From contig NC_086097.1 in assembly GCF_963921235.1 (NCBI RefSeq), forward strand, positions 20,214,001 to 20,278,000: 64,000 nt of DNA. Reading direction: 5' to 3'. Positions 7,400 through 63,099 of this stretch are shown piece by piece. The notes under the pieces were generated by a model that saw nothing but the letters and a program-made list of their open reading frames with translations, had not been told where the DNA came from and made no database searches. Source of the stretch: Mobula hypostoma (lineage: Eukaryota). Each line of letters begins with the position of its first letter. Position 1 is the first letter of the stretch. The position numbers were made by a program, and so were the translations under genes.

Positions 7400-7545
7400 C
7401 CAGAATAACACCCACAAAATGCTAAAGGAACTCAGCAGGGTAGGCAGTACCTATGGAAAGATTCTTGGCCTGAATTGATGACTCTTTATTCTTTTCCACA
7501 GATGCCGCCTGACCTTCTGAGTTCTTTCAGCATTTTGTGTGCATT
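7400..7545. mobile_element. Short foldback element derived from the Penelope-like terminal region
   Basis: CACAAAATGCTAAAGGAACTCAGCAGG ... CCTTCTGAGTTCTTTCAGCATTTTGTG inverted arms; same family as the 45750 and 28580 copies. Confidence 0.65.
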
Positions 7546-7568
7546 AACATCACCATATTTGAACCTAC

Positions 7569-7627
7569 CTGCATCCTTTTGAATGGCTTGTATCTCATGT
7601 TGCAAATATGATCCCAAACTCCAAGAC
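7569..7627 (-). CDS. COQ6: COQ6 coding exon 3
   Basis: 59 bp, tag|GT CTT GGA GTT TGG GAT CAT ATT TGC AAC ATG AGA TAC AAG CCA TTC AAA AGG ATG CAG|GTAGGT = (R)[19 protein letters not shown]; phases fit exons 2 and 4. Confidence 0.93.
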
Positions 7628-8381
7628 CTACAAGAAGTGAAAGTGATTAAAATGTAAAGTTGAAAGAGACCAATATAATAGATGCAGTTAAGCACAGTCT
7701 ACAAAGGAAATTGTATTATTGGGAAGTAAAACATTTAAGTTAAAATTTAAAGAATGAACTAAAACACATGCAGAAACTAAGTCTCTCATCCCCTTGCCCT
7801 CAATTTACACACAAAACAATCCTTCTTATCCTTGTTTTCAAATCCCTACATGGCCCTTAACTCTGCAAACTCATCAGAACTACAAGCTTTGGTGTCAGTT
7901 CATGGCAGCCTTACAGTATTGAAACAGCAATCTTACTGCAAAATGCTCAGTGTGGAGTGAACCGCCAAGGCAAGGTGTACGCAGTGGCTGCCTGTGCTGG
8001 ATCAACAGCAGCGGGCAGTGATTTGCACTAAGTTTCCTGGCACAGCAGCTCAAAGCCTGAGTAGATGCCTTTAAGGTATTTATGCATCCGTGAAATGTTT
8101 ATACTGCAGGACCAGGAAAACTCTGGAGAAGAGGACCAAGCATGATACCAGAGTACTGGGCCCCAGTGTCAGCTAAGGAAGATGAAGAGTCCAGCCTCCA
8201 ACCATACGGGCAGCACAAAACATATAGTCTAACCCATATGCATACTTCAACTGCATGGATTAATTCAACTACTCCAGTCAGTACTTCTGCAAATAAATAA
8301 TTCCAGTAAATGTAAAATAAAAGCAAACTACTAGAAAGACTGAACAGGTCAGGCAGCATTTGATCAGTACAGAGGTTGGTC

Positions 8382-9309
8382 AGTAACACGAAGCTGGGTG
8401 GCAGTGTTAGCAGTGAGGAGGATGCTAAGAGGATGCAGGGTGACTTGGATAGGTTGGGTGAGTGGGCAAACTCATGGCAGATGCAATTTAATGTGGATAA
8501 ATGTGAAGTTATCCACTTTGGTGGCAAAAATAGGAAAACAGATTATTATCTGAATGGTGGCCGATTAGGAAAAGGGGAGGTGCAACGAGACCTGGGTGTC
8601 ATTATACACCAGTCATTGAAAGTGGGCATGCAGGTACAGCAGGCGGTGAAAAAGGCGAACGGTATGCTGGCATTTATAGCGAGAGGATTCGAGTACAGGA
8701 GCAGGGAGGTACTACTGCAGTTGTACAAGGCCTTGGTGAGACCACACCTGGAGTATTGTGTGCAGTTTTGGTCCCCTAATCTGAGGAAAGACATCTTTGC
8801 CATAGAGGGAGTACAAAGAAGGTTCACCAGATTGATTCCTGGGATGGCAGGTCTTTCATATGAAGAAAGACTGGATGAACTGGGCTTGTACTCGTTGGAA
8901 TTTAGAAGATTGAGGGGGGATCTGATTGAAACGTATAAGATCCTAAAGGGATTGGACAGGCTAGATGCGGGAAGATTGTTCCCGATGTTGGGGAGGTCCA
9001 GAACGAGGGGTCACAGTTTGAGGATAGAGGGGAAGCCTTTTAGGACCGAGATTAGGAAAAACTTCTTCACACAGAGAGTGGTGAATCTGTGGAATTCTCT
9101 GCCACAGCAAACTGTTGAGGCCAGTTCATTAGCTATGTTTAAAAGGAAGTTAGATATGGCCCTTGTGGCTACAGGGGTCAGGGGGTATGGAGGGAAGGCT
9201 GGGTTCTGAGTTGGATGATCAACCATGATCATAATAAATGGCGGTGCAGGCTCGAAGGGCCGAATGGCCTACTCCTGCACCTATTTTCTATGTTTCTATG
9301 TTTCTATGT
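8382..9309 (+). mobile_element. Young 5'-truncated CR1 LINE with an uninterrupted ORF2 C-terminus
   Basis: About 270 open codons (TKLGG...QGDLDRL.EWA..WQMQFNVDKC...RPHLEYCVQFWSP...) and (TTTCTATG)n tail; splits a Penelope-derived foldback remnant (about 8320-8375 and 9310-9390). Confidence 0.93.
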
Positions 9310-9446
9310 AACCTTAAAATATCAACTGCTTCGCCGTTGATAGTTTCAGACCTGCTGAGTGTTCTCAGCACTGTTTAGTTCAGATTTTCAGTATCGCTTT
9401 TTCTTTGCTTTTTGAACAAAAACTCAACAGAATAACAGGGACTTAC

Positions 9447-9581
9447 GGTCCAAGAAAGCTGCAGAGCCTGGAGTAAGGGCACTCACTCGATTACTGTGTA
9501 GTTCTGGCAGCTTTCCATCTGCTTTCTTATTTGCAGCCTCCAGTAGAAGGATCCTTTTCTCAGACAGATTTGGATCATCAG
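9447..9581 (-). CDS. COQ6: COQ6 coding exon 2
   Basis: 135 bp, aag acceptor, C|GTAAGT donor; (A)DDPNLSEKRILLLEAANKKADGKLPELHSNRVSALTPGSAAFLD with the ILLLEA and SNRVS motifs. Confidence 0.93.
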
Positions 9582-10034
9582 CTTCAGAAGGAAAAAGGTG
9601 GGAATTTCACTTCATTTGATCACAAGTACTGGCAGTGTTGCAAAGATACAGACAAAATGCAATCACTTTTAGAAAGTAGTAAGTTTTCTAAAAAAAAGTT
9701 CCCAAAATAAATCAATCAATAGGCTATAGAAAAAATTCTGAACATATTAATCCAAGACATAGGAATAAACATTAGAAAAAGGAGCTAATAATATATTTAT
9801 ACTCTATTCTTGGTGCAACTGTAACGAAACCTAATTTCCCTCGGGATCAATAAAGTATGTCTATCTATCTATCTAAAGGTTCAGTGTGGAAGGAAGTTCC
9901 TCCAGCATTTGGTGAGTGTTGCTCACAAAGTTTAAATCCTCACTTCAATGGGAGTTCAGTGAGACCCTCTCTCACTGCTTCCCTTCTGTGATCACTGCTG
10001 TCTCCGCTCTTCAGCCATGTGCTCACCTATTCAC

Positions 10035-10570
10035 TCTATTGGTGAAAGAGCTGCAAGGCTGGAGAAGGAGGAATCTGATATGAGAGGACAGAAGGCCATG
10101 GAAGAAAGGGGTGAGGAGCACCGGAGGAAGGTGATGGGCAGGCAAGGAGATAAGGTGAGAGAGGGAAATGGAAATGGGGAATGGTGGGGGCGGGGGGGAC
10201 ATTACCAGAAGTTTGAGAAATCAATGCTCAAGCTATCAGGCTGGAGCCTACCCAGGCAGAATATAAGGTGTTGCTCCTCCATCCCGAGTGTGGCCTCATC
10301 GCGACAGCAGAGGAGACCACGGACTGGCATGTCGAAATGAGAATGGGAAGCGGAATCAAACTGGGTGGCCAGTGGGAGATCCCACTCTTTCTGGCAGACG
10401 GAGTGCGGGTGCTCAGCGAAGCGGTCTCCCAATCATATCGGGCCTCACTGATGTACAGGAGATAGCACCAGATACAGTACATGACCCCAACAGACTCACT
10501 GGTGAAGGGTCACCTCACCTGCAAGGACCATTTCTGGCCCTGAATGGCAATGACGAAGGAGGCGCTGGGT
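10035..10570 (-). mobile_element. Penelope-like element fragment (GIY-YIG endonuclease C-terminus)
   Basis: YCIWC.LLYISE and GDRFAEH..SV...HF....HSH.DM.V.GLL.C.DEAT..EEQHLIF.LG.LQPD...IDFSNF. Confidence 0.8.
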
Positions 10571-10984: not shown

Positions 10985-12202
10985 TGATGGTTGCTTTGAG
11001 AGACTGACCATGGCTATAATTAACTCCTGCTTAAGGACCCGGAGCTGCTGTGGTTTGCCTTCCATCACAATAGATCTACAGCAGATGCAATCTCACATGC
11101 TCTCCACATGGCTGCGGACCACCTGGACAACAGCAATACAGATGCAAGGCTGCTGTTTATTAATTACACCTTGGCATTCAACCCAATCATTCCCACAGTA
11201 CTAATCAATAAGCTTCAAAAGCTGGGCACCTGTACCCCTTTCTGCAACTGGATCCTTGACTTCTTCACCGGGAGACCACAGTGAGGGCAGATCAGAAATA
11301 GCGTCTCCTCCTTGCTGACAATCAGCACTGGCACAGCTCAAGGATGTATGCTTAGCCTACTGATTTACTCTGTCTAGGCACAGCGCAAACAGCCTCTAAA
11401 CATTCACCGTTAACATAACAGTTGTAGGCAGAACCTCAGAGGCGTATAGGAGTGAGATACTGTACATCAGCTGGTTGAGCGCTGTTGTGACAACAACCTT
11501 GCATGTTGCTCTGGATTTCCAACATCTGAGGGATCCCTGGTGTAACTGATCACAGACTTCAGGAAGGGGAAGTCAAGGGCACACAGACCAGTACTTATCA
11601 AGGGGTCAGCAGTGGAAAGGGCAAGCTCATGGGTGTCAACATCTCAGAAGATCTATCCTGGGCCCAATATATTAATGAAATTTCAAAAGTGGACATATCA
11701 GCAGCTATATTTCAATCTGAGTTTGAGATTTGGTATGTCACTAAAGATGAGCAAATTTCAGCAGATTTACCTTGGAGAGCATTCTAACTGGTTGCAGCAC
11801 CATCTGGTATGGAGAAGCCACCGCACAAGAGGAGAAAAAGCTGCACTGGGTTGTAAATTCAGCTAGCTTCATCATAGGCACTAGCCTCCCTAGCATCAAG
11901 AATATCTTCAAAGGGCAATCCGTCAAATCGGGCAGCATCCATCACCCAGGACATACCTTCTTCTCGTTGCTACCATCGAAGAGAAGGTACAAAAGCCTGA
12001 AAACTCACATTGAACTTTTTAAAAACAGCTTCTGCCCCTTCGCTATTGGATTTCTGAACTGACAAAGAACCCATGAACACTGCCTTACAATTTCTTGCTC
12101 TCTTCTTGCGCTACTTATTTAATTTTCTTACATATTTGCAATCACAATTTATAGTATGTTTATATTTCACAACATAGGTCAGTGATAATGAATCTGATTC
12201 TG
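10985..12202 (+). mobile_element. Degraded Rex1/Babar-type LINE (RT to 3' end)
   Basis: CFERL, NRSTADAIS, AFN.IIP, CNWILDF.TGRPQ, STG.AQGC.LS.L motifs; C-terminal HHPGH..FSLLPS.RRY; (TGATTC)n-like tail. Confidence 0.8.
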
Positions 12203-12245
12203 AACCCTCCCTCTCACACATAGCAACCGTCCTTCCTAAACTCAC

Positions 12246-12249
<4 letters not shown>

Positions 12250-12284
<35 letters not shown>
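12250..12284. repeat. (CA)n microsatellite in COQ6 intron 1
   Basis: Uninterrupted AC dinucleotide run. Confidence 0.95.
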
Positions 12285-12288
<4 letters not shown>

Positions 12289-12359
12289 CTCACTGCCACC
12301 CCTCCGCCAGGCTGTGGAAAGGCGGCCTGTCTCAGTCCCGCGTCCGGGCCCACACTTAC

Positions 12360-23443: not shown

Positions 23444-23759
23444 TAATAAATAAATCAATTGCAATATATGTATATTGAGTAGATTAGAAATCATGCAAAA
23501 ACAAAAAATATATTAAAAAGTGAGGTAGTGTTCTACTTGTGTGACTGTACAATGTCTGCACACTTTCTCAGTTAGCACATCATCCTAACCCTTGACTTGC
23601 TGCAACTTCCAAAGACTCTTCTGCTCAAATGGTCTACACCGAGCACAGGATCCTCCCTGCTTGCTCGTGTTCAGCCCATAACACTCTAAGCTCTTCCTCT
23701 TCAATGTGGCAGTTGTAACATCTGAAAGGTGGAGTTGGCTGTCTTAAACTATATTCAAC

Positions 23760-24105
23760 AAGCAATCTACTACCGGAAATCAGCAGACCGGCAGCATCCG
23801 TGAGGGAAATGAACAGTTGGCATTTTGGTCAAGTCCTTTCAACTAGTCCAGATGAAGGGTCTTGTCTTTAAACATCGACTATAACAAACAACCTACTGTA
23901 GGAAATCAGTGAACAGGCAGCATCTGTGAAGGGAAACGGACAGTTGATGTTTCGCGTCAACACCCTTCGCTAGTCTGGAAGAAGGGTCTCAACTTTAAAC
24001 ATCAATTGTCCATTTTCCTCTACAGATGCTGTCCGGCCTACTGATTTCCACCAGCTAATTGTTTGTTGCTTCAGATACCAGTATCTGTAGACTCTTGCAT
24101 CTCCG
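23760..24105. mobile_element. Two adjacent degraded Penelope-derived foldback elements with decayed hammerhead-like cores
   Basis: CAGCATC...CAGTTG arms and ..GATGAAGGGTC...AAACATCGAC-type cores near 23850 and 23945-24005. Confidence 0.55.
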
Positions 24106-27937: not shown

Positions 27938-28577
27938 GTGAGTCTGTTATGGAGTCAGAGAGCAATACGACACGGATGCAGGCCCTTTGGTTCAACCAGT
28001 CCATGCGGCTGGTCCCAATTTCCTGAGTTCAGCCCATATCCCTGCATGCCCGTCCCTCCCGTGTACCTATCTGAGTGCTTTTCTCACAGCGCATTCCATA
28101 TACTCTCCACTCTCTGCGTGAAAAAGTTGCCCCTCAGATCCCTTCTAAATCTTTCCCCTCTCAGCCTGAATCTGTGTCCCCTAGTTTTGGTCTCACCTAT
28201 TCTGGAGAAAAGACTGTTACCATCCACTATATCTATGCCTCTTGTAATTTTAAACATGTCTATATATGGTTGCCTCTCATTCTCCTGCATTCCAAGGAAT
28301 AAAAATCTAGCCTGGCAAATCTCTTCCTATATCTCAGGCCCTCTAGTCCCGGTAACATCCTCATAAATCTTTTCTGTACTCTTTCCATGTTGTGGATAAA
28401 TCCACCAAGTTTGGTGAAATTTTGTCACCTTAATTCTCTCAAACATCATTTAGTCCCTTTTGTTGGCTTAAGTGAATTTAACAATAACTTGAATTTTGGT
28501 AGCATCTTCTAATATAGGAATACAGTCAGAGATGATTATCAAGAATATTATCACAAAGGTATCTTTCAACACTCACA

Positions 28578-28782
28578 AACACAAGACATTGTGCAGATGC
28601 TGAAAATCAGAGTAACACACACAAAATGCTGGAGGAACTCAGCATGTCAAGCAACATCTATAGAGAGGAATAAAGAGTTGATGTTTTGGGCCAAGACCCT
28701 TCATCAGGACTGCCTGAAATATCAGTTTTGTTCTTCTCCAGAGATGCTGCCTGACCTGTGGAGTTCCTCCAGCATCTTGACT
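28578..28782. mobile_element. Penelope-derived foldback element with a decayed hammerhead core on the minus strand (28676-28712)
   Basis: Arms AATGCTGGAGGAACTC...CATCT / AGATGCTGCCTGACC...GAGTTCCTCCAGCAT; minus-strand core AGTC CTGATGA AGGGTCTTGGCCC AAAA CATC AACT. Confidence 0.7.
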
Positions 28783-31610
28783 TTGTTACTTTCAACACTC
28801 AGTTATGGAAGATGATATCAAGAAGTATAAGCATAGAAAGGTGATTAAGGTTTAGGAAGGAAATTCTAGTTAACGATAAAAGTACAGTGCTCAGTAAAAG
28901 AACAATTAAAATCAAGGATGAGCGCAATTTAGTAATTGGTAAAGTTTGCATTCTTGGAGCCCATTTAACAAACAATAAAATATCTTGTTAAACTCTGAAT
29001 CAATTTTTTAAGATAATGACTGATATAATAGAGCAACATTGATTGAGCACAATACAATTCTGATAACCTATGCCACTAAGTGATGTGCATACTCAGAAAC
29101 TACAGCATGCCAACATACAACAAGACAGACACAACAACAGCAAAACAGACCCTCTTCCTACCCCACCCTCATTGGGATTCAATGGCCCTTGTCCTTGGGG
29201 CCCAGTGACTGCGGTCCTTGACCTTGGGGATTGCATAACTGTGGCATTCCAAAACTGCAAATACTTCACACTAGTTAGCATGCAGGAATTTCAGAAATTT
29301 GTTTTTAATAATCAAAACAGAGAACCGACATAGCTGGTTACCTTTAATCTGAGATTCAATTACCCTTTTTAATAGTGTCTTTCTTAATAAGTCTCATTTA
29401 CTGAAGATGAAATGTTACTTTTGTTCTTTATTCATTCCCATCCTGTTATTTCAGCTGACTTTCCATTGGGCAAGTTAGGAATATCAGATGGAACCTGTAA
29501 ATTGTATTTAGGGAATAAATTAATGAATAATAATTTTCTGTCAACAGAAATATTTCACTTCCTTTCCACACCATCTCCTCCAACGCACTACACCTGGGAC
29601 TTTTGAAGTCCAAATTATTTTGGATTTTGTTGTATTTACAAATTGGATTACACCAAACGTTTATCATATCTGCATGGACATTAATTCCCACAGAACAATG
29701 CTTGATCCTCTTCACCAGTGGGTCAAAACCTTGTTCTGTGAAGCTCTTGACGTCAATGGTGTGCAACTGCTTCTCAGGTTTTAAAACAAACTATACACAG
29801 GCAACTTTCATAGCACATTATGATGTTCAGGACATGTAATGGTAAGACACTCACAGACTACTCAACAATTGCAGACCTGAACAGCACACTATTATAACTT
29901 GAGAGCTCAGATGGTTTGGCATCAATATGGCTGCTCTGACTGATGCATACCATGGAGAGGGGGTGGCCAGTTTGAAAATACTAGCTTACTTTCCTGTAAG
30001 CCTACAACTTATTCTCTTGCACATGCTCGACACCCCATTTGATTTTTTTTTCCTTTTGCCTACACCAGAATTATCAACAGTGGCCATTTAACTTGAGTAC
30101 CTTAAAACCCTTGCATTCCTGTTAGTACTCTGACACCTTTTAAATTTTTTTTAAAGTATGTTACACAGTATAATAAATTTTATAGCAAACATGGTAAGGT
30201 TAAATAAAGAGTGAGAAACAGACCAGGTAGTTTTCAAGGGAACATTGGAATGGGGGTTTAAAGGGAGTTTAATGAGTGTCTTCCAGGGAAGTGTGAGAAC
30301 TGGAGCCCCAGTGTGTCAGGAGGAGTGTGGGAACCAAGGCACTAGTGTGTCAGAGGGAGCGTAGGAGTCAGCTGGATGTGGATCCACTAGGATTTACAAA
30401 TAGTCGGATAGGGGATTATCAGAGCTTTACTGTACATCATTTGGATGTGGAAGGAAACTGGAGCACCCTGGTAAACCAATATAGTAATAGAAAGAATGCG
30501 CAAACTCCAGACTGACGGCACCAGAGGTCAGGATTAAATCTGGGCCACTGGAGCTCTCAGAAAAAGCTTCAATGGAAAAACATGCAACATCTTCACTAAG
30601 AGCCAGAGTTTGTGGCATATAACCAGTCAAAATGCAGCAGATGATATTGAGAAATTTTGTGTCCTTATATAGGGAGTTCAGAGAATTTGTATGTAATTGG
30701 GGGAAAGAGCAAAAACTGCACTCCCGTCCATCTCTTTGGCCACCATCCTGTCCCATCTGTAGAAGGGTGTCAAAAGCTATGGGGGGAAGGTGGGAGAATG
30801 AGGTTGAGAGGGATAATAAATAAGACTCAATGGGCTGAATGGGATACTAAATCAGCCATCATTAAATGGCAGACCAGACTCGGAGGGCCAAATGGCCTAA
30901 TTCTGCTCCTATGTATTATGGTCATTTAAGCAGTGCAAAGGCGATGGATGGTGTGGATACAGAAAGCAGGGTTTTGGATGAATTCAGATTTATAGAGTGT
31001 AGAAGTTAAAAGGCCAGAGAGGAAAATGTTAGAATAGTCCAGCCTGTCAGCATTAGTAGCTGAATGAGGGTTTTGGCAGCAAGTTGAACCTAGCAGTTTG
31101 CCAATTTTGGATATGGAAAGGCATGTTAGAAGATTACATCCAGTAGCCATCTGTCTTGCTGTAAATTATTGGGATAGCTTCACAGAATTGGATAAAGGAT
31201 TGTTATTCTCAGATCAGCACAGGCCCATGGTGTACTGCCACACAGGTCCTAGATGTATGAAGAGGCATAGTTTTAAGATGATAGTGTGAAGATTAGGGGG
31301 ATGAAAGAGGTAAGTTTTCTTTTACAGGTGCATGGAACGCACTGCCAGGGGTGATGGTAGAGGCAAATATATTGGGGAGATTCTATAGGCTCAGACAGGC
31401 ACACGGAGGTCTATGTTGAGGGGAAGGCTTAGATTAATCTTGGAGCAGGTTAAAAGGTCAGCACAATAACATGGGCAAAAAAGGCCTGTGCTGTGCTCTA
31501 TTGTTCTATGTTCTGAATATCTATATGGTGTTTGGATGAAATGTTGCATTTAAACAAGCCGAGCTATTCATAGTTTGATTTAGTGTCAGCTATTTTTATT
31601 TCTTTACCAG

Positions 31611-35752: not shown

Positions 35753-37890
35753 TACTTTCTCATTTCATTTGACCTCCCAAGGTGCTTCATTTCACATTAG
35801 CCTGGATTAAACTCCATCTGCCACTTCTCTGCCTATATCTGTAATTTATTTATATCCCACTGTGTTTTTTGATAGCCCTTTATATTACTATTCTCAGGTC
35901 TATCAGCTGGCCTTGCTTATTTCCCAAAACTAGGCCCAGTATGTTTTCCTGTAGTTAGTCTCCACATCCTCTCAGATGTTCTGAAGAAATCCCAGCCTAC
36001 CCAAGTCTTTTGTATGATGGGAGTTCCACTCATTACCAGAGAAGTTAAATTCCCAAAGTTTAAAAATTCAAACTGAATTTATTATCAAGGCACATATATG
36101 TCTACCATTACTACCATGACATTCATTTTCTTGCAGCCATTCACAGTAGAACAAAGAAATAATAAAATCGATGAAAAACTACACACATAGACTGACAAAC
36201 AACCAATGTGTAAAAGACAAACTGTGTAAATACAAAAAAAGAATAAGTAGTTGTAGAGGCGATGACAACCCAGTTGTCTCTTCACCTTTCCATAAATCTA
36301 TTTGCATATCTGTTCCTCTACCTCTCTGTGATGATGGGGGGGGGGGGGCTCTAGTACCCTGTCAGTATAATTACACCCTTCTTATTTTGGAGCTCCACTT
36401 AAATGACTTCTCTAGTTTGTCCTCTGCTTGGTACTGCTGTGACATTCTCCCTTATCAGGAGGGCAATCCTTCCTCCTCTTTTACCCCCACATCTAAAACA
36501 ACAAAAGCCAGGAAAGTTGAGCTGTTCGTCACACAACCATGCCTCCTAATTTCATATACTGATGCAGGCTCTAAGTTCACCCTCCTAGTGTTGAAATAAA
36601 CACATTTCATCCCATCAGTCCCACCATGTTTATTAGCATGCCCCTTGCTGTCCTTCCATTCAGTCTTACTTATTATATCCTCTATCTTGTCCTCAAACCT
36701 GTTATTGAAGAGCAGAGGGAACATTTTATTGTAAGTGTGGTTGTCTTCTAGCTGACAAGGTTGCACTTGACAAATATCAAGGGGAAAGGTTTTCTGTTTC
36801 AGTTGACACTCCTTACATTTCTTGACAGAAAACTAACCAACTGTGTCAGTTACAAGAGAGTCACAAATAAATTCAACAAGGAATTTGGCAGAAGTTGCTT
36901 TACACACAGAGAATGGTTAGAATGTGGGTGTAATGATTGAGGCTTACAAAATAAATTGATTGAAATAGATGAGGATAAAAGAAATTGAAGAATTTAGTGA
37001 TAAAACAGGAGGAAGCTCACATAGGCTCAACACCAGTACTCAGACTCAATGTCTTGTGTCTGTGATGTAGATGTAAGTAGCTGAGTGAGAAATTGAAATG
37101 AGATTTACTGGCTCTTATATATAGTTTCTATACAGATTCAATCATACTGTGATCACTCTTTCCAAGGGGAACCCAAACTCCTCTTGAGATTTTATTTATC
37201 TCATTTCATAGGACCAGATCTAAGATAGCACATTCCCTTGTAAGTTCAGCAACATGCTGTTCAAGAAAGTCACCACGGATGCATTCTATAAAGCCCTCCT
37301 CAAGACTGCCTCGACCAACTTGATTCACCCAATCTATGTGCGAGTTAAAGTCCCCCATGATAACTGTTGTTCCATTCTAACATGCCTCAAATATTTCTTT
37401 GTTTATTGCCGGTGCCTCTGTAATGTTATTATTTGGTGGCCAATAGACAAGTGATTTTTTTTTCCCTTTACTATTCTTAATCTCTACCCAGATGGATTCA
37501 ACGTTCTGCTCCTTAGATCTTATATCGTCTCTCACTATTGCCCTGATCTCATCTTTAAGAGCGCTACCCAACTGCCCTTACCTTCCTGCCTATTCTTCTG
37601 TAATATCTGATGACCTTGGACATTTAATTCCCAATCCTCTTCACCCTGCAACCACGTCTGTGTAATGGCCACTTTAATGGCCCTTTGTACTGATTTGAGC
37701 CACAAGTTCACTGGCCTTGTTTCAAATACTACAGGCATTCAAATAAAGTGCCCTTACACTCATTGTGCTTCTAAAATCTTGTAATCTTTTACTCTTTTGC
37801 ACTTGACTTTTCTTCACTCCACTTTTACTTTTCTCTTTTGCTTTTTCTTTATCTTTATCCACACTTTTCTTTTTCACTTTATCCATACTT

Positions 37891-45640: not shown

Positions 45641-45749
45641 AAAGTAATTGCAGAAGAGGGAAGAATGGGAAATATTAAAATTGAAACTTAATACAGGGGT
45701 ATTAATAAAGAAAGATAAGTACGCAACAATATAATTGCTAGACCACAAA

Positions 45750-45926
45750 ATAATCTGCAGATGCTGGGATCAAAGCAACACTCACAACACGCTGGAGGAA
45801 CTCAGCAGGTCAGGCAGCTTCAGTGGAAACGATGAGTCAACGTTCCTGACGAAGGGTTCCGGCCTGAAATGTTGACTCATTGTTTCCACTGATGCTGCCT
45901 GACCTGCTGAGTTCCTCCAGCATGTT
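45750..45926. mobile_element. About 175 bp Penelope-derived hairpin element
   Basis: About 57 bp inverted arms (about 45786-45844 and 45868-45926) with few mismatches around a central core. Confidence 0.8.
45843..45877 (+). ncRNA. Minimal hammerhead ribozyme-like motif (degenerate)
   Basis: CTGACGA-AGGGTTCCGGCCT-GAAA-TGTT-GACT: CUGANGA and GAAA boxes around a short stem II; stem I weak. Confidence 0.5.
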
Positions 45927-46605
45927 GTTAATTGCTATACCATATGGAGTTGGCTGTAGAATATTTTTCCTGCATAGTCCCTTGGAATTGAGAATAACTT
46001 GCTTCCTTCTGTGTTCTGAGATAACTGCTGAGGTCATCATGGGGCATACAGGAAGTGTTATCAAACACAATTGGGTAAATAATTAATGTTCTTCCACTAT
46101 TTACACTGAGGTACCTTGTACTCCTCATTTATGGACCCAGGGTTCTCACTACCATGCTATAACAGCAAAACTGTTGCATTTTTTCATAGAGGCTTTTGAG
46201 CACATCCTCAGATCTTCTTAAAGATGAGCTTTATTTGTCACACGTACATTGAAACATCAAAATATACATACAGCACCTGCAGATTTTCTCTTGTTAGTGA
46301 AATGTGTCGTTTGCATCAATGATCAGCACAGTCTGAGGATGTCCTGGGGATAGCCCACCTTGGTCACCATGCTTCCAGCGACAACATAGCATACCCACAA
46401 CGTATTAACGCTTACACCTGTGGAATGTGAGAGAAACACGGAGCACCCTGAGGAAACTCAAGTGGTGACAAGGAGAACAAATTCCTTGTAGACAGCAACA
46501 GGAATTCAACCTCATTGACTGTGCTAATTGCTTTGCTGCCAGATTTTTTCCCCTCTGTCCAGCAGATAAATCTTTTCCATAGCAAAGCAATATATCCAGA
46601 TATGG

Positions 46606-47780
46606 AAACAACAGGAATTCTGCAGATGCTGGAAATTCAAGCAACACACATCAAAGTTGCTGGTGAACGCAGCAGGCCAGGCAGCATCTGTAGGAAGAGG
46701 TGCAGTCGACGTTTCAGGTCAGGACTAACTGAAGGAAGAGTTAGTAAGGGATTTGAAAACTGGAGGGGGAGGGGGAGATCCAAAATGATAGGAGAAGACA
46801 GGAGGGGGAGGGATAGAGCCGAGAGCTGGACAGGTGATAGGCAAAAGGGGATACGAGAGGATCATGGGACAGGAGGTCCGGGAAGAAAGACAAGGGGGGG
46901 GGTACTCAGAGGATGGGCAAGAGGTATATTCAGAGGGACAGAGGGAGAAAAAGGAGAGTGAGAGAAAGAATGTGTGCATAAAAATGAGTAACAGATGGGG
47001 TACGAGGGGGAGGTGGGGCCTTAGCGGAAGTTAGAGAAGTCGATGTTCATGCCATCAGGTTGGAGGCTACCCAGACGGAATATAAGGTGTTGTTCCTCCA
47101 ACCTGAGTGTGGCTTCATCTTTACAGTATAGGAGGCCGTGGATAGACATGTAAGAATGGGAATGGGATGTTGGAATTAAAATGTGTGGCCACTGGGAGAT
47201 CCTGCTTTCTCTGGCGGACAGAGCGTAGAATGAAACACATTGGAAAGAAAAGGTCCGGGAAGAAAGACGGGGGGCGGGGAAGCCTCCTCTACTGTAAAGA
47301 TGAAGCCACACTCAGGTTGGAGGAACAACACCTTATATTCCGTCTGGGTAGCCTCCAACCTGATGGCATGAACATCGACTTCTCTAACTTCCGCTAAGGC
47401 CCCACCTCCCCCTCGTACCCCATCTGTTACTTATTTTTATGCACACATTCTTTCTCTCACTCTCCTTTTTCTCCCTCTGTCCCTCTGAATATACCTCTTG
47501 CCCATCCTCTGAGTACCCCCCTCTTGTCTTTCTTCCCGGCCCTCCTGTCCCATGATCCTCTCGTATCCCCTTTTGCCAATCACCTGTCCAGCTCTTGGCT
47601 CCATCCCTCCCCCTCCTGTCTTCTCCTATCATTTTGGATCTCCCCCTCCCCCTCCAACTTTCAAATCCCTTACTCACTCTTCCTTCAGTTAGTCCTGACG
47701 AAGGGTCTCGGCCTGAAACCTCGACTGCACCTCTTCCTAGAGATGCTGCCTGGCCTGCTGCGTTCACCAGCAACTTTGAT
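46606..47780. mobile_element. Penelope-like element as a long inverted repeat
   Basis: Arms 46650-47136 and 47282-47780 near identical, each encoding the GIY-YIG C-terminus LLYCKDEATLRLEEQHLIFRLGSLQPDGMNIDFSNFR; TSD ATATCCAGATATGG (46592-46605, 47779-47792). Confidence 0.9.
47691..47726 (+). ncRNA. Minimal type I hammerhead ribozyme-like motif
   Basis: AGTC-CTGACGA-AGGGTCTCGGCCT-GAAA-CCTC-GACT: stem I AGTC/GACT, both conserved boxes, stem II; stem III CG changed to CC. Confidence 0.6.
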
Positions 47781-48149
47781 ATCCAGATATGGTATATTTT
47801 GGTATCTGGGTTCTGTCTACCTGAGCCTGTCTGATACAGGCAGGGAAGAAGATCCTGATATGATTGGTTTATCCTAATGGATTTGGAGGATTTTTCAGAG
47901 GCAATGTTGGTGGTATTTGTCCAGTGCCTGCTTCAGGTAGTCCAAGGCACAGAAGTATGTTGAGGAGCAAGAATCACTGTTGTGTGCAACATCATCAATT
48001 TTTGCTGATACGGAGGCCCTTAATCTTCAATCACCCATTTCCTCACTTGGCTAAAGGCTGTTTTGGTTCACTGTAAACATGAGTGAATTTGATCACAAGA
48101 TATTTTGGGAAAATATGACCCTCATTTTCCATTGTCTTGTTGTGACCCT

Positions 48150-48740: not shown

Positions 48741-48743
48741 TAC

Positions 48744-49922: not shown

Positions 49923-51329
49923 GTCTGAGAGAAAAGAGAAAAGAATGCCGGTATATAGCAGCAGAACCCATAACCTAACAGTTTCTCTTCAACCACCACT
50001 CCCCCACCCAGTTCTGTCTGTCCATCATCCCCTTCCCTCCCTGTTACCTACTATCCCATCCCCACTTTGTACTGCTATATACTGGCAATCTTTCCTCTTC
50101 CCTCTCAGCCTTGATGCAAGATTGATGCCCAAAACATTGACGTACCTTTTGTATCCTCAGAGGTTGATTGACCAAATGAGTTCAAGATTGTTCAAGGCTT
50201 CAAGATCGTTTAACGTTATCTCCAGTGCAGATGTGTAAAGGGGAACAAACAAACTAATTGTTACTCCGAATCTCATACAGCAGAAAAAAAACACAAGATA
50301 AAGAACACAACTGTTTAAAAAAACACTATAAATACATAAGGTGACTGACAGGAAATGATAAAGTAGTAGTGGAAGGGTGGGTTGGATGTTGATCAACATT
50401 ACTGCTTGGGGAAAGTAACTGTTTTTGAGTCCAGTGGTCCTGGCATGGGTACTACATAGCCTCCACCCTAAAAGGAGTGAGACAAAGTGAGGGGGATCTT
50501 TGAGCAAAGAATAGGAGCAAAATGGGTGGGATCCTTCATGATATTGCTGGCCTTTTTCTGACATCTTTCGTCCAGCATTCTGGGTTTTTTTGTTCCAGAC
50601 GCCGGCACTTGCAGCCCCTTTTGTCTTCAAGAGTGACTTGCATTTATGTTAATTAGCTCTTGGATCTAATGGTCAATCTCATAAAACCAGCCCTAGAAGA
50701 GAAGTTGAGAGTCTGTCCAGGAGCTGTTAATTATTCATTAACTTCAAGGTAGCGTCATGCACTGTAGACACTCTGTATTGCTGTTAGCCGAGAGTGAATA
50801 CAATAACTAGCTCAGAGCTGTCTAAGAGGAGCTGCATTTGGAGGTTCAGAGAGTTTCAGTGTTCAGAGTTTCTTACAGCATGATTTCTGTCAGTGATGTA
50901 TTGGGTTCAGGGTCATGTGAATAATGGTGGATTGGCCAATAATCAATAGTTATCATCATTTGTTGTGCTGCAGTGATGGTAACTTCCTCATGATCAATCA
51001 CTTGCACAATGATAAAATCTAGACAGACGCCAGTGCCTGGACCTGTAATATTCCCATGTGATTCTGCACATGGTCATTTCATAGGTTAGCAAATCTGTCC
51101 AGCCACTCCAAATGTAAATAGGATGTACAAAGACTGTACTTTCCAAGCTGAAATATAGGCTATCCAGTGGCCCCACTCCTTACAGGTAAGTGGGTTGCTT
51201 GATGTGGTGTCCAAATCTTATTAGATTTAAGAGCTCCTAGATTCAATGATTGCTTAGTTACATCCACTTGGGAATTGTACCAAAGGCAAAATCAGGTACT
51301 CAATTTGAGGAAGGCCCCACAAGCACAGA

Positions 51330-52706: not shown

Positions 52707-55700
52707 GTAAAACAAAACTGAAAGTTAACTGTGTGGATAATGCATCTGATGTTTCTTTACAGTTCATTGAAGATGGATGAAGAAATAATGCATTATAGAG
52801 ACTTGCGCAAAGTACTGGAGGAACTCAGCGGGTCAGATAGTATGGACTGTCGCCATTTTGGGTCAAGACCCCTTATCTGGACTGGAAAGCAAGGGAAGAA
52901 GTGATGATAAAAGGGTGGAAGAAATGGGCTGTGCACAAGCTAGTGGGTGATAGCTCAATCCCGGTGAGAGGGCAAGGGTAAGCAATTGGGGGAGGGGGGA
53001 GTTGGAACAACGTAAGAAGCTGGGAGACGATGGGTGGAAGTGACAAAAGGCTGAAGAAGATGGAATCTAATAGGTATTAGACAGTGGACCATGGAATAAA
53101 GGGAAGAAGCTGAGAAGGGGAACTAAAGGAAGGAATGTATGGGTGATGGGCAAAGGAGGGGAAAGAAAAGTGATAATGGGCTGGTGGGATAAAGGAAAAC
53201 AAAAAGGGGCACAGAGGATAGTCCATCTGTCTCTGAGCATATATAATGTCACCTGTGGATCAGTAAGAAATTTCTGCTTGTGCTGAATTTGAATTGAAGC
53301 TCCAGCATCTCAGTACACTTCAGTCATTGCGTTTTTACTGAGCTGTTGTACACAGTCATTTGAATTCTAGCCATAAGTTTTTACTGAAACAGTGCAAGTT
53401 GTTGCTGCTTCCCTTTTCTTTCTCCTTTCTTCCCAGAAATTGCTCCCTTTATCTGATTCCCTACTGAAAGTCATTTTTGAATATCTTTCTATCTTAATTT
53501 CAGAGATAACAGATGAATGCATAAATGGTTTTTGTTTCATGTCACCTCTGCGTAATTTTCACCAGTCAACTTAAATTTGTTTGTTATGGCTTTGTGCCTG
53601 TGCTCTTTATTTTTCTTTAGTCTATGAAAAGCCTCTGGTTTAAGCACCTCTCCTAACTCTTGTTTTTCTTTCTACTCTTACCAGCACAACCAAGCCTTTC
53701 ATCCCTGGTACTTTTCTCGTCAAGTTTCCAACATCTGCTCTGGACTTTGACATCCTTTCCTAAGCATGGTCCATAGATAATGGCCATTATAATCCAGTTC
53801 AAATCTAGTTTAGCAGAACTTGATTTCATACCCTGTATTCTTCTCTAATAATGATCCCAGATGGCTTCATGATAACTTTACCTTGCTTCCTTCAAAGACT
53901 TGTATGTATACAAATCCAGTTCAATACTCATCTCACATTCCATGTATTTTTAAAAATAATTTACTGACAGTGGAAACTTACTTTGCCAATTTGGATTGTT
54001 CTGGTATTACAGTGTGACAAAAAGTAATTCAGTGACTGTATTACATGTAATGGAAGGGTTTCTTTGTTGTAAACCCCCTTGCTGTTTCTGGGTCTATTGT
54101 CCAGTGTTCTTAGTACCTTTATATAGCAACTATGAATAGCAACCAGAAACAACTTGTTCTTGCAATACAACGAACATTTATTTTGTATGAAAGCTAATAA
54201 TCTACCCTATATAGCAATCAACAACCATTTAAATAGAAATAGTAGCCAAAAACAATTAATACTTGTTAAATTGTGAGTTGAAACATGAGCAAAAACTCAT
54301 ATCCAAAGTTTATACAGTTTAATTCCTACTCCTCCAGTACTGGGTCATTGCCTCAAATACTTCGTAAGGGAATGTTAGGAAATCAAACTGTAGGGAATGT
54401 TGTGTACAAGGGTAGTTGTGTGGAGTGCTTGAATGACACCCCTGTAAAGATGACTATTTGGATAGCTCCTTGCCTGGTCGATAGGATGTCGGATAAGCAA
54501 CATGATCAGTCTGAGTCAGCAGTGGAATCAGAAAAGAGAAGGAGCTCATAAAGACATGTGCAACAACAGCATGCATATTGAAAGACGTCCACTTGAGGAA
54601 CAATGGGTAGACTCGATGTAAAAGGAATCAAAGTTAGATTCCAGAGAAATGGGAAAAGAAGCATTTCAGGTGAATTTACTAGTTATTAGAGGGGGAGGAT
54701 GATGATGATGAGAAAAGTCTTCTCTCTGCTTGTGGTCACGTAGGGTGTAATTTGTATTGCTGATCAAGGGAGTTTAACTGGAATGGAACAATTGAGCAGA
54801 CTGAATAAGTAGGAAAGATAGGCGATGAAGAAGATTGGAAAGGGAAGGGAGATCAGAGATCAGTTTAATAGGTACTGCTGGATGAGGATACTAATACGCT
54901 GGTATTTTCAGCACATCTGCATCTGTTAAAGATCTCCACTCTCCACCATGGTTTATATTAGAGAGGGCTGGGTGGTAGTTTGAAAGAGAGGAAGATCAGT
55001 GATAAGGTTTCATTTGTAAAGTGGGTGTTGATGATGGCAGATTTTTAGGGGGAGAGAGTGGTCCCAGAGAGAGGAGACATGAGGCATCTTGGGGAGCCAG
55101 AAAGAAAAGTTGAGTGATTGTCAGTGTGGTGGGAATAAGATCAAAGGTGCAAGGTTGGATTATGGCCAAGATAACACGGATAGTCTGCCAATTCATATTT
55201 TTATTGAAGCAGATAATAATCTAGACTTTAGTAGTAAACAGAAAGATGTATGTGTGAAAGGTCCAATGGCAACAAACTTGCAATGTGGCTATCAAACTAC
55301 TCAGAGTAACACAGACAAAATTCTGGAGGAACTCAGCAGGTCAAGCAGCATCTACGGAGAGATATAAACAATTAGCGTCTTGGGTTGAGACCCTTCATCG
55401 GGATTCCAGCTTCTTCCAGATTTCCAGTACCTGCAGAATCTCTTGTGTTTATCAACTTTCCTAGCACAACTTATAACTTTCAACAATGTAGCCAACAACC
55501 TCGAATATATAAACAGGTATAACGTTGTGGCATCACTGAATCATGGCTGAAGGATGGTCGTAGGTGGGAGCTGAATGTCCGAGGTTATGCGATAGGAAGT
55601 GAGGCAAAAGGGGTGCTGTAGCTCTGCTGGTAAAGAGTAGCAGAATCAGCAGAAAGGTGTGACATAGGATCAGAAGATGTTGAATCCTTGTGGGTTGAGT

Positions 55701-60459: not shown

Positions 60460-60860
60460 TTGGCCCTGAATGGTGGTGAGGAAGAGGTGTGGGGGCAAGT
60501 GTAGCACTTTTCATGATTGCAGGGGTAAGTGCCAGCAGGGAGGTCAGTGGGGAGAGATGAGCGGACAAGGGAATCGTGTAGAGGGGAATCCCTATGGATA
60601 GCAGATGGGTGGATGAAGGACGGGTGGGAGGAGGACGGGAGGGTGTGCTTTGTGATAGGATCCCTTGGATATGGTGGAATTTACGAAGAATGATGTCCTG
60701 GATACAGAGGCTCAGGGGGTGGTAGGGGAGGACAAGGGAAGTCTTATTCCTGTTATGATGTCAGGAGAATGGGATGTAGGAAATAGAGGAGATGCAAGTG
60801 AGGACAGCAAAAGCAGTGGTGGAAAGGGAAACACTATTTGTAAAAAGAGGACATCTCATA
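60460..60860 (-). mobile_element. Degraded Penelope-like coding fragment
   Basis: Minus strand resembles the RVPLVLTYHP...AFRRD.SL.D...C....C.TC segment seen at 35400-35650. Confidence 0.6.
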
Positions 60861-61230
60861 TCAAACCTTATTTTTCTTTAATAAATCCATCTTCACTTTA
60901 CACAATACTGCTTTCTAAGTGGTTTGATCTTTATAAGCTCTAATTCTTACATTTTGTCTTCCACTGATGTTAGGCTAATTGATTTATGGTTACTTGTTTT
61001 CTCTCTCTCATGCTTTTTAAAAAGTGGGATTACATTTTCCATCCTTCAATCTACCCAAACTGTTTCAAAATCTATAAAATTCTGTTAAACAGTTAATATG
61101 GAACTCATTGCCAATATAGCAGCACCCATTTAATAAACAAAGGAGAATTTTTGTGCCAATATTTGGCAACATGGAGCTATGTTTGATTGGAAGTAGTCCT
61201 TTGAATATGACTTTGATGTTTATTCCATAG

Positions 61231-61398
61231 AAAATCTCTGGAAGAACGAGATAAGCAGGAAATAGAAAAAGCTGAATGGATGGAGAAGTACAAAAAGAAT
61301 GTCCAAGATATAAGCAAAAAAGTATCAATCCGAGCTAAAGCGATGGACTCTCATCAAAGCCTTGCAGAGACCTTCAAAGAAATATTGAAGAAGTATAG
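61231..61398 (+). CDS. FAM161B: FAM161B coding exon 7
   Basis: tag acceptor; KSLEERDKQEIEKAEWMEKYKKNVQDISKKVSIRAKAMDSHQSLAETFKEILKKY(R); 168 bp, phase 2 to 2; weak AG|GTCTGT donor. Confidence 0.88.
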
Positions 61399-61682
61399 GT
61401 CTGTAGGTTTCTTAATATAACACATTTTAATTGTATAGAAAATTTATCAGAATTCTTAGTGTATGACTCTTAAAGGAATTACCTGTCATGTATGTAGTGC
61501 TAGTTGAATGCAAAAAGTCCCATTACATTAGTGCAGAGTTGAGGAAGTGAGTTCTGTATGGTCTCTCTATCATTTCTCTGTCAACAAACTCCGCCAAGCA
61601 GCAACTCCTCTTGTTCATAGTTTAGCTGTCATAAAGGCCTTACACTTGCTTCTATCACTTAATAACCTATTTTAATTCACAG

Positions 61683-61782
61683 GCAGGCGGACCTTAGGAG
61701 GAAACAGGAGTACAAGAAGGAATTAGAGGAGATGAAAAGGAGAGTCTGCAGCAGACCCTATCTTTTTGAACAAGTCACTCAG
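61683..61782 (+). CDS. FAM161B: FAM161B coding exon 8; gene continues beyond right edge
   Basis: cag|G CAG GCG ... QADLRRKQEYKKELEEMKRRVCSRPYLFEQVTQ|GTAAGG; RP.LFEQV motif; 100 bp. Confidence 0.9.
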
Positions 61783-63099
61783 GTAAGGATGATAGACACC
61801 TTGATCAACTTATGAATCCACGGATCGGATATACATCTTTGCACAATAATGTGGGCTGGAAATGAGACTCTGAAAGTCTTCTGTGAGTTCTAACACACCT
61901 AGGTGTTTGAGGTCAATATGGTCAACCAGTAGCCACCATATGTGCATTGACATGACCTTTCCACTCTCAGCTCTTGGTGTCCCTGAACTTGGTGGCACAG
62001 TCTGCCATAGAGTGGCGTAACCAGCAACATTCACTTGTATATTTTTTCCAGCAACTGTTTCGTATAGGTGTCTATAAAGTGACAATTTGTTTGCTACCTT
62101 AAAGGGAGAACTGGAGGAAGGAACAGGAGTCACCAGATATGTTAGTACCATTATCAGCACCATCTCTCCCAAATACTGCTGCAGGATGTTTATAAACATG
62201 AGATCTTGCAGCTACTGGAAATCAAGAGCAACACACACAAAATGCTAGAGGAACTCAGCACATCAGGTAGCAGAATCCAAATCAGGTTTATTATCACCGG
62301 CATGTGACGTGAAATTTGTTAACTTAGCAGCAGCAGTTCAAGGCAATACATAATCTAGCAGAGAGAAAAATAATAATGAATGAAATAAAACATAATAAAC
62401 AAACAAGTAAATCAATTATGGATATTGAATAGATTTTTTTAATGTGCAAAAGCAGAAATACTGTATATTTTTTTTAAAAAGTGAGGTGGGCCAGCAGTGG
62501 TGGCCAAATCACTGAGCTGGAAGCCAGGAGCAGATGGGCAGTGATTTGGCCACCACTGCCAGCCCACCAACTGGAGAGTGTCGTGGTTAAGGGTTGAAAC
62601 ACACTGTGAAGGTTGGGAACCACCTGATGACATCTGCTCCTGGCTGAAGGCTATGGTTACCTTATAAGGTAACTGGAGAATACACCCTAACAGGTGTATG
62701 TAACAAGGTAGTGTCTAAAGCTTCAATGTCCATTTGGGAATCGGATGGCAGAGGGGAAGAAGCTGTTCCTGAAAATGCATCTATGAAAATGAATAAAAAG
62801 TCAATGTTTTGGGCTGAGACCCTTCGTCGGGATTGGAAAGTAAGGGGGAAGGAAGCCCAAATAAGGTGGGGCAAAGGGAGGGAGTACAAGCTAGAAAGTG
62901 ATAGATGAAACTAGGGTGTTTAGGTATTTTTGGGGGATTCCCTGAAAAATACTACTTTATAGGTGGAAATATGATCTGAGTAATTTGAATCAATATAATC
63001 TCAGCATAGTGATACTACCTTCCCACAAGGAAAATTGCCTCAGTTCCACCCTGATTATCAACTGAATACGTACTGTTTGTGGCCAAAGAGTAAGGCTGC

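What the first reader, a model, noticed from the sequence alone, without database searches (positions are those of the whole stretch)
7400..62840. Dispersed Penelope-derived foldback mini-elements built around a minimal hammerhead ribozyme core
Seen: about ten related segments (near 7400, 8320/9340, 23760-24105, 28580, 35100, 45750, 46606-47780, 52800, 55310, 62210/62780) share the arm GCTGGAGGAACTCAGCAGGTCAGGCAGCATC. Most also keep a core whose consensus I read as AGTC-CTGA(T/C)GA-AGGGTCTCGGCCC-GAAA-CGTC-GACT: stem I AGTC/GACT, CUGANGA box, stem II, GAAA box, a CG mini stem III and a GUC cleavage triplet. Established: Penelope-like elements carry minimal type I hammerheads with a palindromic stem III thought to act as dimers. 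Many departures from consensus are CpG transitions (GAAA to AAAA, CGTC to TGTT or CATC), consistent with methylation decay. Inference: several copies are non-coding 150-200 bp hairpins that may be a non-autonomous, ribozyme-bearing family mobilised by the Penelope partner, at roughly one copy per 6-7 kb.
Basis: partly seen in the sequence, partly recalled or inferred. Interest (0 to 1): 0.7.

Follow-up and report, generated by a model that had tools for sequence, protein, structure and literature searches.

The report
Truncated Penelope insertions in a ray
The hairpin repeats are real, but they are the short, decayed leftovers of separate insertions of a known kind of jumping gene (Penelope-like) in a ray genome, not a new ribozyme-bearing mini-element family, and their main value is as a natural record of how these elements insert.

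Summary
The repeats and the minimal hammerhead (HHR) trace are real: 14 loci in 64 kb, with strong CpG decay. The arm is the reverse complement of the stretch just 3' of the HHR at the end of a Neptune-type Penelope-like element (PLE). Its closest relatives are from myliobatiform rays. All 7 readable inner junctions differ except one locally duplicated junction. The two halves of an insertion group with each other, and hairpin 45750 is closest to an ORF-bearing copy (87/96). What is shared is the published PLE insertion pattern: an inverted 5'-truncated copy, a tail at one end only (5 of 5 clear cases) and 13-14 bp target duplications (3 of 7). Only 3 of 13 HHR-spanning halves keep both catalytic boxes, none keeps the palindromic stem III, and the foldback disfavours the ribozyme fold by about 19 kcal/mol. 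A useful by-product: in several copies each half holds sequence the other lacks. That fits priming from both target strands at two fixed start sites.

The parts
45732..45745 (.). left target-site duplication of hairpin 45750 (13 of 14 identical to 45929-45942)
45746..45843 (-). tail-bearing half of 45750: element positions +98 to about -5 (0 = HHR cleavage base)
45844..45928 (+). tail-less half of 45750, -29 to +59; holds both HHR boxes (45846-45873) but lacks the first two bases of stem I
45929..45942 (.). right target-site duplication of 45750
28563..28575 (.). left 13-bp target-site duplication of hairpin 28580
28576..28713 (-). tail-bearing half of 28580, +104 to about -32; HHR with G12 lost by a CpG transition
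28714..28788 (+). tail-less half of 28580, about -10 to +58/+67
28789..28801 (.). right target-site duplication of 28580
46592..46605 (.). left 14-bp target-site duplication of the long inverted copy
46606..47228 (-). tail-bearing half of 46606: tail, arm, HHR with an internal deletion of about 14 nt, 3' UTR and GIY-YIG C-terminus; reaches about -533
47229..47281 (.). junction filler, partly a templated copy of 46874-46902
47282..47778 (+). tail-less half of 46606, -440 to +58/+60; ORF end, 3' UTR, best-preserved HHR (47691-47726); 474/486 identical to the other half
47779..47792 (.). right target-site duplication of 46606
35101..35297 (-). tail-bearing half of 35100: tail, arm, HHR with both boxes (35198-35225), about 70 nt of 3' UTR
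35298..35753 (+). oppositely oriented PLE coding fragment: RT thumb, CX3CxxC linker, start of GIY-YIG; 75% identical to ray proteins; its 3' end is not in place
7395..7460 (-). left half of hairpin 7400, about +77 to +13 (no HHR)
7461..7541 (+). right half of 7400, about -18 to +62 (no CUGANGA box)
8324..8359 (-). left half of a decayed hairpin split by a LINE 3' fragment (about 8360-9309)
9310..9395 (+). right half of the same hairpin, from about -10 into the tail
23757..24103 (.). hairpin with an old 127-bp tandem duplication (23757-24003, 76%); junction at about -27/-31; tail at the right end; all four HHR traces defective
52806..53215 (-). one-sided copy: ends at +60 without tail; defective HHR; purine-rich antisense 3' UTR
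55299..55406 (-). half of 55310, about +75 to -31; defective HHR
55418..55450 (+). tail-only half of 55310, +71 to +103
62198..62272 (-). tail and arm of a copy split by an insertion of about 500 bp
62777..62905 (-). continuation of the same copy: spacer, defective HHR, 3' UTR
   Evidence: E 5e-4
50103..50184 (+). additional decayed copy
   Evidence: E 7e-6
9895..9925 (+). arm and tail fragment
   Evidence: E 1e-4
11491..11544 (+). tail fragment
   Evidence: E 5e-4
10181..10569 (-). broken PLE linker and GIY-YIG coding fragment
60480..60847 (-). broken PLE RT-thumb and linker coding fragment

Best explanation
Each locus is an independent insertion of a Neptune-type, endonuclease-bearing Penelope-like retrotransposon, from at least three or four subfamilies of different age in a ray genome. 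The element ends in: GIY-YIG stop, pyrimidine-rich 3' UTR, minimal type I hammerhead, then an arm-and-tail stem-loop. Shown here: two-sided copies consist of two oppositely oriented 3' ends joined head to head; one ends about 96-108 nt and the other about 58-66 nt past the ribozyme cleavage base; the inner breaks vary; the youngest copies have 13-14 bp target duplications. Inferred mechanism: the endonuclease nicks both target strands about 13-14 bp apart, and each 3' end primes reverse transcription at one of two fixed internal start sites (the tail end, and the apical loop of the stem-loop). The two cDNAs stop early at unrelated points and are joined by end-joining repair. When both stop within about 130 nt the product is a 150-210 bp hairpin; when they run further it is a long inverted repeat with coding sequence. 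The ribozyme is a passenger from the parent's pLTR: the cDNAs run across its cleavage site, and it then decays by CpG deamination.
For: Coding link: the arm and HHR are contiguous with a GIY-YIG C-terminus 45/48 identical to a Mobula protein; relatives carry RT, a CX2-5CxxC linker and GIY-YIG. Junctions as tail half/tail-less half: +13/-18, -32/-10, -5/-29, -31/-27, +71/-31, -533/-440, and about -100/mid-ORF. Halves of one locus are sisters: 46606 pair 100/99, 45750 pair 82/54, 23760 trio 89/88; 8 of 12 inner branches are unresolved. The 45750 tail half is 87/96 identical to ORF-bearing 35100, but 67/87 to hairpin 28580 and 41/53 to 7400. Target duplications score 11, 13 and 13; 0.4% of 1500 random pairs reach 10. 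The tail is at one end only in 5 of 5 clear two-sided copies. In 45750, 7400, 35100 and 55310 each half has sequence absent from the other, which excludes simple snap-back copying. No inner break lies at +1. In run X1, ORF-end sequence is about as deep as arm sequence (9.0 against 14.0 million summed depth), and the best of 1049 joints has only 17-23 contigs. Literature: inverted 5'-truncated copy and one-sided 30-40 bp tail (PMC8557442); inverted pLTRs with 8-10 bp TSD (PMC3846280); min-HHR pairs 100-700 bp apart on opposite strands, ascribed to truncated PLEs (PMC4209133); both strands cleaved and extended, two internal start sites, HHR dispensable in vitro (PMC11167929).
Against: Only 7 junctions from one 64-kb window; no genome was held. 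One search was saturated, showed 15 of 1049 joints, and used contigs that drop rare variants; its three raw-read runs held 2 reads each. Four of 7 two-sided copies show no target duplication (the more decayed ones). Five breaks fall at -27 to -32, and two of the contig joints shown (tail only, then sense from about -30 and -36) resemble 55310, so a preferred stop, or a recurrent short class, is not excluded. Under simple truncation models the cluster has P 0.0001-0.10, or 0.003-0.33 when one of the non-independent pair is dropped. No full-length element or RT phylogeny was obtained. The Pfam RT and GIY-YIG matches of the relatives are below the curated cut-offs. The two-primer step is inference; the in vitro work is on a Poseidon-clade element.
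Confidence: 0.85

Rival explanations
1. A non-autonomous hairpin family (or several) with fixed structure is transcribed and re-mobilised by the Penelope protein, with the ribozyme processing its RNA.
For: Shared outer ends and target duplications; high density; pLTRs can mobilise other sequence in trans (PMC3846280); non-autonomous PLE partners exist (PMC9977147); a few recurrent tail-to-HHR joints in X1 (4 contigs).
Against: No two independent loci share a junction; hairpins are not one clade. Only 1 of the 5 short hairpins has both catalytic boxes; it lacks part of stem I and is 19.3 kcal/mol from the ribozyme fold in its own hairpin. The two HHRs are on opposite strands. No dominant joint.
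Confidence: 0.07
2. Independent PLE insertions, but the inverted half arises by snap-back (the first cDNA folds and copies itself) or by later palindrome repair, not by a second priming event.
For: 23760 has a nearly symmetric junction (-27/-31). In 28580 and 46606 the tail-less half is contained in the tail-bearing half.
Against: In 45750, 7400, 35100 and 55310 each half has sequence the other lacks. The fixed end at +58 to +66 needs its own cause. Post-insertion deletion would have to be invoked in each case.
Confidence: 0.06
3. The elements are non-LTR retrozymes (tandem HHR repeats that spread through circular RNA), or foldback/MITE-type DNA transposons.
For: One 127-bp two-unit tandem with an HHR trace in each unit; inverted ends.
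Against: The only tandem has both cores defective with the same G12 change, which points to a later local duplication. The ends are asymmetric, the duplications are 13-14 bp, and the repeats run into PLE coding sequence.
Confidence: 0.02

Closest known systems
Neptune clade of endonuclease-bearing Penelope-like elements (Craig et al. 2021, PMC8557442; Arkhipova et al. 2013, PMC3846280)
   Same: RT, Cys-rich CX2-5CxxC linker, C-terminal GIY-YIG; 5' truncation; inverted 5'-truncated copy; 30-40 bp tail at one end; target duplication; HHR near the 3' end.
   Different: Host is a ray, with about one locus per 4.6 kb here; duplications are 13-14 bp against 8-10 bp in the rotifer; many insertions are so short that both halves stop within the pLTR. 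No full-length or partial-tandem copy lies in the window.
Minimal type I hammerheads of metazoan PLEs (Cervera and de la Pena 2014, PMC4209133)
   Same: Catalytic boxes, 4-bp helix I, an unpaired base between positions 9 and 10.1, G10.1-C11.1, palindromic region around 15.2-16.2; pairs on opposite strands 100-700 bp apart were already noted there.
   Different: Helix II is 4 bp (7-8 bp in Schistosoma). Four CpGs sit in the motif, one at G12 and one at the scissile bond, so methylation decay destroys it quickly. The passages read name fishes, coelacanth, Xenopus and reptiles, not cartilaginous fishes.
PAc (Poseidon from Anolis carolinensis) in vitro (Frangieh et al. 2024, PMC11167929)
   Same: Two internal start sites in a stem-loop that define the tail; both target strands cleaved and extended; HHR cleavage not required.
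   Different: Different clade. There the start sites are a few bases apart, inside the ORF; here the two ends are about 40 nt apart. That paper (parts read) does not map inner junctions of inverted copies.
Animal non-LTR retrozymes (Cervera and de la Pena 2020, PMC7229834; Li, Clavereau and Pollet 2026, bioRxiv 10.64898/2026.07.22.740005)
   Same: Non-coding, pLTR-derived, HHR-bearing; reported from one chondrichthyan genome.
   Different: Retrozymes are head-to-tail tandems with an HHR in each unit; these are head-to-head inverted pairs with variable junctions and mostly dead cores.
LINE-1 twin priming (recalled; only a search listing was seen)
   Same: Two primers from the two target strands give a 5' inversion; 55310 (tail-only part plus adjacent inverted part) has this geometry.
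   Different: The second priming site appears fixed, and the halves often overlap by tens to hundreds of bases, which needs strand displacement or two RNA templates.

Membership tests
EN+ Penelope-like element (Neptune clade) | RT followed by C-terminal GIY-YIG endonuclease in one ORF | tested here: met
   Window fragments 75-94% identical to P0001 and P0002, which run from RT motifs to GIY-YIG; Pfam GIY-YIG E 5e-4 to 8e-4 and RVT_1 E 1e-4, both below curated cut-offs; only fragments in the window
EN+ Penelope-like element (Neptune clade) | Cys-rich CX2-5CxxC linker between RT and EN | tested here: met
   CX3CxxC in the ORF at 35232-35687 and a similar motif in relatives; feature defined in PMC8557442 and PMC3846280
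EN+ Penelope-like element (Neptune clade) | Inverted 5'-truncated copy next to the direct copy | tested here: met
   46606, 35100, 45750, 28580, 7400, 23760, 55310
EN+ Penelope-like element (Neptune clade) | 30-40 bp tail at one end only | tested here: met
   5 of 5 clear two-sided copies (28580, 45750, 46606, 23760, 55310); 7400 and 8320/9340 compatible but decayed
EN+ Penelope-like element (Neptune clade) | Target-site duplication | tested here: met
   3 of 7 tested, 13-14 bp; 0.4% of 1500 random pairs score 10 or more
EN+ Penelope-like element (Neptune clade) | RT phylogeny within Neptune; partial-tandem full-length copy | not tested
   No tree was built; no full-length copy in the window and no genome held
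Minimal type I hammerhead | CUGANGA, GAAA and UH with helices I and II, extra base after A9 | tested here: met
   Met for the column majority and for 3 of 13 halves; the 47691-47726 copy folds into helices I and II on its own (ddG 0.0; 9.0 with 60 nt of flank)
Minimal type I hammerhead | Palindromic stem III for dimer formation in a copy with an intact core | tested here: not met
   0 of the 3 copies with both boxes keep it; the half at 46606 keeps it but has lost the 5' box by deletion
Minimal type I hammerhead | Compensatory changes in helices I and II | tested here: inconclusive
   90% of 71 cells paired, 1 two-sided change, 224 of 500 shuffles as high; 9 sequences, one off by a base at its end
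Minimal type I hammerhead | Self-cleavage | not testable with these tools
   Needs an in vitro assay
Non-LTR retrozyme | Head-to-tail tandem with an intact HHR in each unit | tested here: not met
   Only 23757-24003 (2 units, 76%), both cores defective
Non-LTR retrozyme | Circular or unit-length RNA | not testable with these tools
Discrete non-autonomous family (SINE- or MITE-like) | Copies share a fixed internal structure and both boundaries | tested here: not met
   Seven different junctions in seven insertions; no dominant joint among those shown
Discrete non-autonomous family (SINE- or MITE-like) | Short copies form a clade apart from autonomous copies | tested here: not met
   45750 is nearest to ORF-bearing 35100; halves pair by locus; the tree is weakly resolved

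The most novel reading that the evidence does not exclude
The preferred break at the 5' edge of the ribozyme (-27 to -32, five halves here, and two similar contig joints) is real. It marks the 5' end of a short pLTR transcript or a ribozyme-linked stop, so ray Neptune elements make a defined 'strong-stop-like' class of twin-primed mini-insertions, some of which are re-mobilised as a non-autonomous hairpin or tail-plus-ribozyme family among some hundreds of thousands of copies.
Probability: 0.15. Interest if true: 0.55.

Novelty: new member of a known kind. Interest (0 to 1): 0.27.

Why it matters
As a system this is ordinary Penelope-like element biology, and the published structural features account for nearly all of it. 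Two things keep some value. First, I found no description of this family in rays (searches; Repbase and Dfam could not be searched), and its density suggests some hundreds of thousands of copies. That would make these genomes a very large reservoir of minimal hammerheads, nearly all disabled by CpG decay. Second, how PLEs make inverted ends and one-sided tails is still open. Young ray copies with clean target duplications would allow the two-primer model to be tested with thousands of natural events; a search for twin priming with Penelope listed no paper on that model.

Tried and rejected
No whole genome was held, so the genome-wide boundary test could not be run. Exact scans with a 23-nt arm pattern found nothing in viral, metagenome or prokaryote genome contigs. 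Rfam: no hammerhead family; the mir-1791 match at 45801-45911 (45 bits against a gathering score of 75) reflects only a long hairpin, and the other matches are chance. Three raw-read runs (X21-X23) held 2 reads each and gave nothing; joints in X1 between the 45750 and 46606 copies mostly reflect the two subfamily references and were not read as foldback junctions. A possible partner tail for 52800 near 53270-53330 scored 21, below the 95th percentile of random windows (23), and was dropped from all counts in this report; its two values were still among the 16 breaks in the cluster simulation. The first folding run used a stem II register off by one base and was replaced; its CpG count also included a doubtful site at +36/+37. 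No target duplication was found for 7400, 8320/9340, 23760 or 55310, nor a downstream partner for 35100. Covariation in the HHR was not above shuffles, and in the arm-and-tail stem-loop it is weak (3 of 20 pairs, 6 sequences). Earlier scan notes held nothing similar by sequence or by the full word list; the 8 listed concern other genomes and were not used.


Full report
Setting. The window is 42% G+C with a CpG observed/expected ratio of 0.28, is rich in LINE fragments (RVT_1 at 21077-22441) and holds FAM161-family exons at 42.7-44.7 kb. The closest proteins to its Penelope fragment come from Hypanus sabinus and Mobula hypostoma. Run X1 holds two unique stretches of the window without a difference. 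The host is therefore a myliobatiform ray or a close relative. No genome was held.

Observation. The arm occurs 11 times at up to 7 substitutions and once exactly. A profile from 11 window pieces gives 24 hits at E<0.01 in 14 loci, against 2 hits at E>6 in the reversed window (seeds match by construction). Transitions are 57 of 134 at four CpG sites against 61 of 506 at other C/G columns (sites chosen from the data). Two of these CpGs hit G12 and the scissile bond. Only 3 of 13 halves that span the motif keep both boxes and UH, none of them with the palindromic stem III, and two of the three belong to ORF-bearing copies. Rfam found no hammerhead; covariation is not above shuffles.

What the arm is. 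On the element's sense strand the order is: GIY-YIG C-terminus and stop (47282-47397; the matching stretch of the other half is 45/48 identical to P0002), pyrimidine-rich 3' UTR, HHR, spacer, arm, tail. Relatives run from RT motifs through a CX2-5CxxC linker to GIY-YIG (Pfam matches below curated cut-offs). That linker marks Neptune-type elements (PMC8557442 passages; PMC3846280 parts 1-3 of 5). The window holds further broken coding pieces at 10181-10569, 35298-35753 and 60480-60847. Arm and tail are predicted to form a stem-loop, with weak covariation (3 of 20 pairs, 6 sequences).

Anatomy of the insertions. Two-sided copies are two 3' ends joined head to head. One half ends at +96 to +108 (with tail). 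The other ends at +58 to +66, in the apical loop of the stem-loop (+75 in 55310). This holds in 5 of 5 clear cases. Target duplications of 13-14 bp flank 28580, 45750 and 46606, 3 of 7 tested; 0.4% of 1500 random pairs score 10 or more, against 11-13 observed. The inner breaks (tail half/tail-less half) are +13/-18 (7400), -32/-10 (28580), -5/-29 (45750), -31/-27 (23760), +71/-31 (55310), -533/-440 with a 53-nt partly templated filler (46606), and about -100/mid-ORF (35100). 8320/9340 and 62210/62780 are single copies split by later insertions. The only repeated junction is inside 23760, a 127-bp local tandem at 76% whose two + strand cores share a G12 change.

Family or independent events. 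Halves group by locus (46606 pair 100/99, 45750 pair 82/54, 23760 trio 89/88; 8 of 12 inner branches open). The 45750 tail half is 87/96 identical to ORF-bearing 35100, but 67/87 to 28580 and 41/53 to 7400. Of 29.8 million contigs read from run X1, 280,707 were laid on 45600-47240. Unique bins have depth 8-24, arm bins 2.9-14 million and the ORF-end bin 9.0 million; the tail bin of 46606 (5.2 million) is lower than its arm bin (14.0 million). The best-supported of 1049 joints has 17-23 contigs. The tool warns that summed depth is no copy number and that counting was incomplete; only 15 joints were shown, and the three raw-read runs were empty. This supports, but does not prove, the absence of a dominant hairpin. 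A foldback also works against the ribozyme: the second HHR is antisense, and in 45750 the ribozyme fold costs 19.3 kcal/mol against the full hairpin.

Mechanism. Shown: geometry, ends, duplications, variable junctions, and cDNAs that cross the cleavage site (no break at +1). Established: PLE insertions are 5'-truncated, often with an inverted 5'-truncated copy and a one-sided 30-40 bp tail; inverted pLTRs with 8-10 bp duplications occur in a rotifer; opposite-strand min-HHR pairs were ascribed to truncated PLEs; PLE insertions can have a median length of 128 bp (PMC9977147 passages); the purified Anolis protein cleaves and extends both target strands, starts at two internal sites that define the tail, and does not need HHR cleavage (PMC11167929, parts 1-2 of 4). 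Inferred: both target ends prime, one at the tail end and one at the loop, and the two cDNAs are joined by end-joining repair. In 45750, 7400, 35100 and 55310 each half has sequence the other lacks, which snap-back cannot give without later deletion. 55310 has the geometry of LINE-1 twin priming (recalled). I put the independent-insertion reading at about 0.85 and the two-primer step within it at about 0.65.

Unexplained. Five breaks fall at -27 to -32, the 5' edge of the HHR, where a pyrimidine tract and AG resemble a 3' splice site (in Drosophila virilis an intron ends at helix I). Under exponential truncation models P is 0.0001-0.10, or 0.003-0.33 with one of the non-independent pair dropped; the list of 16 included approximate values and two from a pairing later dropped. 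Several of the breaks include the AG, so they are not clean splice junctions.

Comparison and novelty. The elements work like, and by the tested features are, Neptune-type PLE insertions; an RT tree was not built. They fail the tests for non-LTR retrozymes (PMC7229834 passages; bioRxiv 10.64898/2026.07.22.740005, parts 1-3 of 5 and passages; supplements not seen) and for a discrete non-autonomous family. Searches found no description of this family in rays, and searches listed none of PLE-derived hairpin families or of twin priming in PLEs; the library lacks most subscription papers, Repbase and Dfam. PMC8969392 and PMC6155905 were seen as passages only. Verdict: a new member of a known kind, interest 0.27.

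Noticed in passing
window 12217-12579 (-): Exon with a dinucleotide-binding GxGxxG motif, weakly like flavin monooxygenases (E 0.04). It looks like the first exon of COQ6, which neighbours FAM161B in vertebrates (both points recalled; no Pfam hit).
   Followed up: partly
window 42692-44697 (+): Two FAM161A/B exons (PF10595). Copies 45750 and 46606 lie just downstream; if they are intronic, their best-preserved HHRs are on the gene's sense strand and 46606 would form about 500 bp of dsRNA.
   Followed up: partly
window 46650-47780: Young inverted repeat (474/486 identical). One half has lost about 14 nt of the HHR between two short direct repeats; the other has lost 13 nt in the 3' UTR region (alignment gap).
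   Followed up: partly
window 35230-35245, 47675-47695, 52884-52892: A pyrimidine tract ending in AG directly before HHR helix I looks like a 3' splice site, as in Drosophila virilis Penelope.
   Followed up: no
window 4640-5170 and 8360-9310: Two nearly identical LINE 3' ends (98-99% over 300 nt) with an 8-bp tandem tail; one interrupts a Penelope hairpin. CR1/HER1 type by recall.
   Followed up: partly
window 20906-21682 and 48743-49517: Two 95%-identical LINE copies in opposite orientation 27 kb apart; the first has a 455-codon open RT frame.
   Followed up: no
window 13061-13833: Overlapping open frames on both strands; the + frame (200 aa) has a PD-(D/E)xK-like look typical of restriction-like endonucleases of some retroelements (recalled); no Pfam hit.
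   Followed up: partly
window 46205-46424: Another high-copy repeat fragment (depth up to 230,000 in X1) with a possible Penelope tail remnant at 46270-46300 (E 0.04).
   Followed up: no
window 60436-60464 and 24792-24822: Weak tail-like matches (E 0.095 and 0.16); the first abuts a coding fragment at 60480-60847 on the same strand with no 3' UTR or HHR between.
   Followed up: no
window 45801-45911: The hairpin scores as a sub-threshold microRNA precursor (mir-1791); such foldbacks could be mis-annotated as novel microRNAs in cartilaginous fishes.
   Followed up: no
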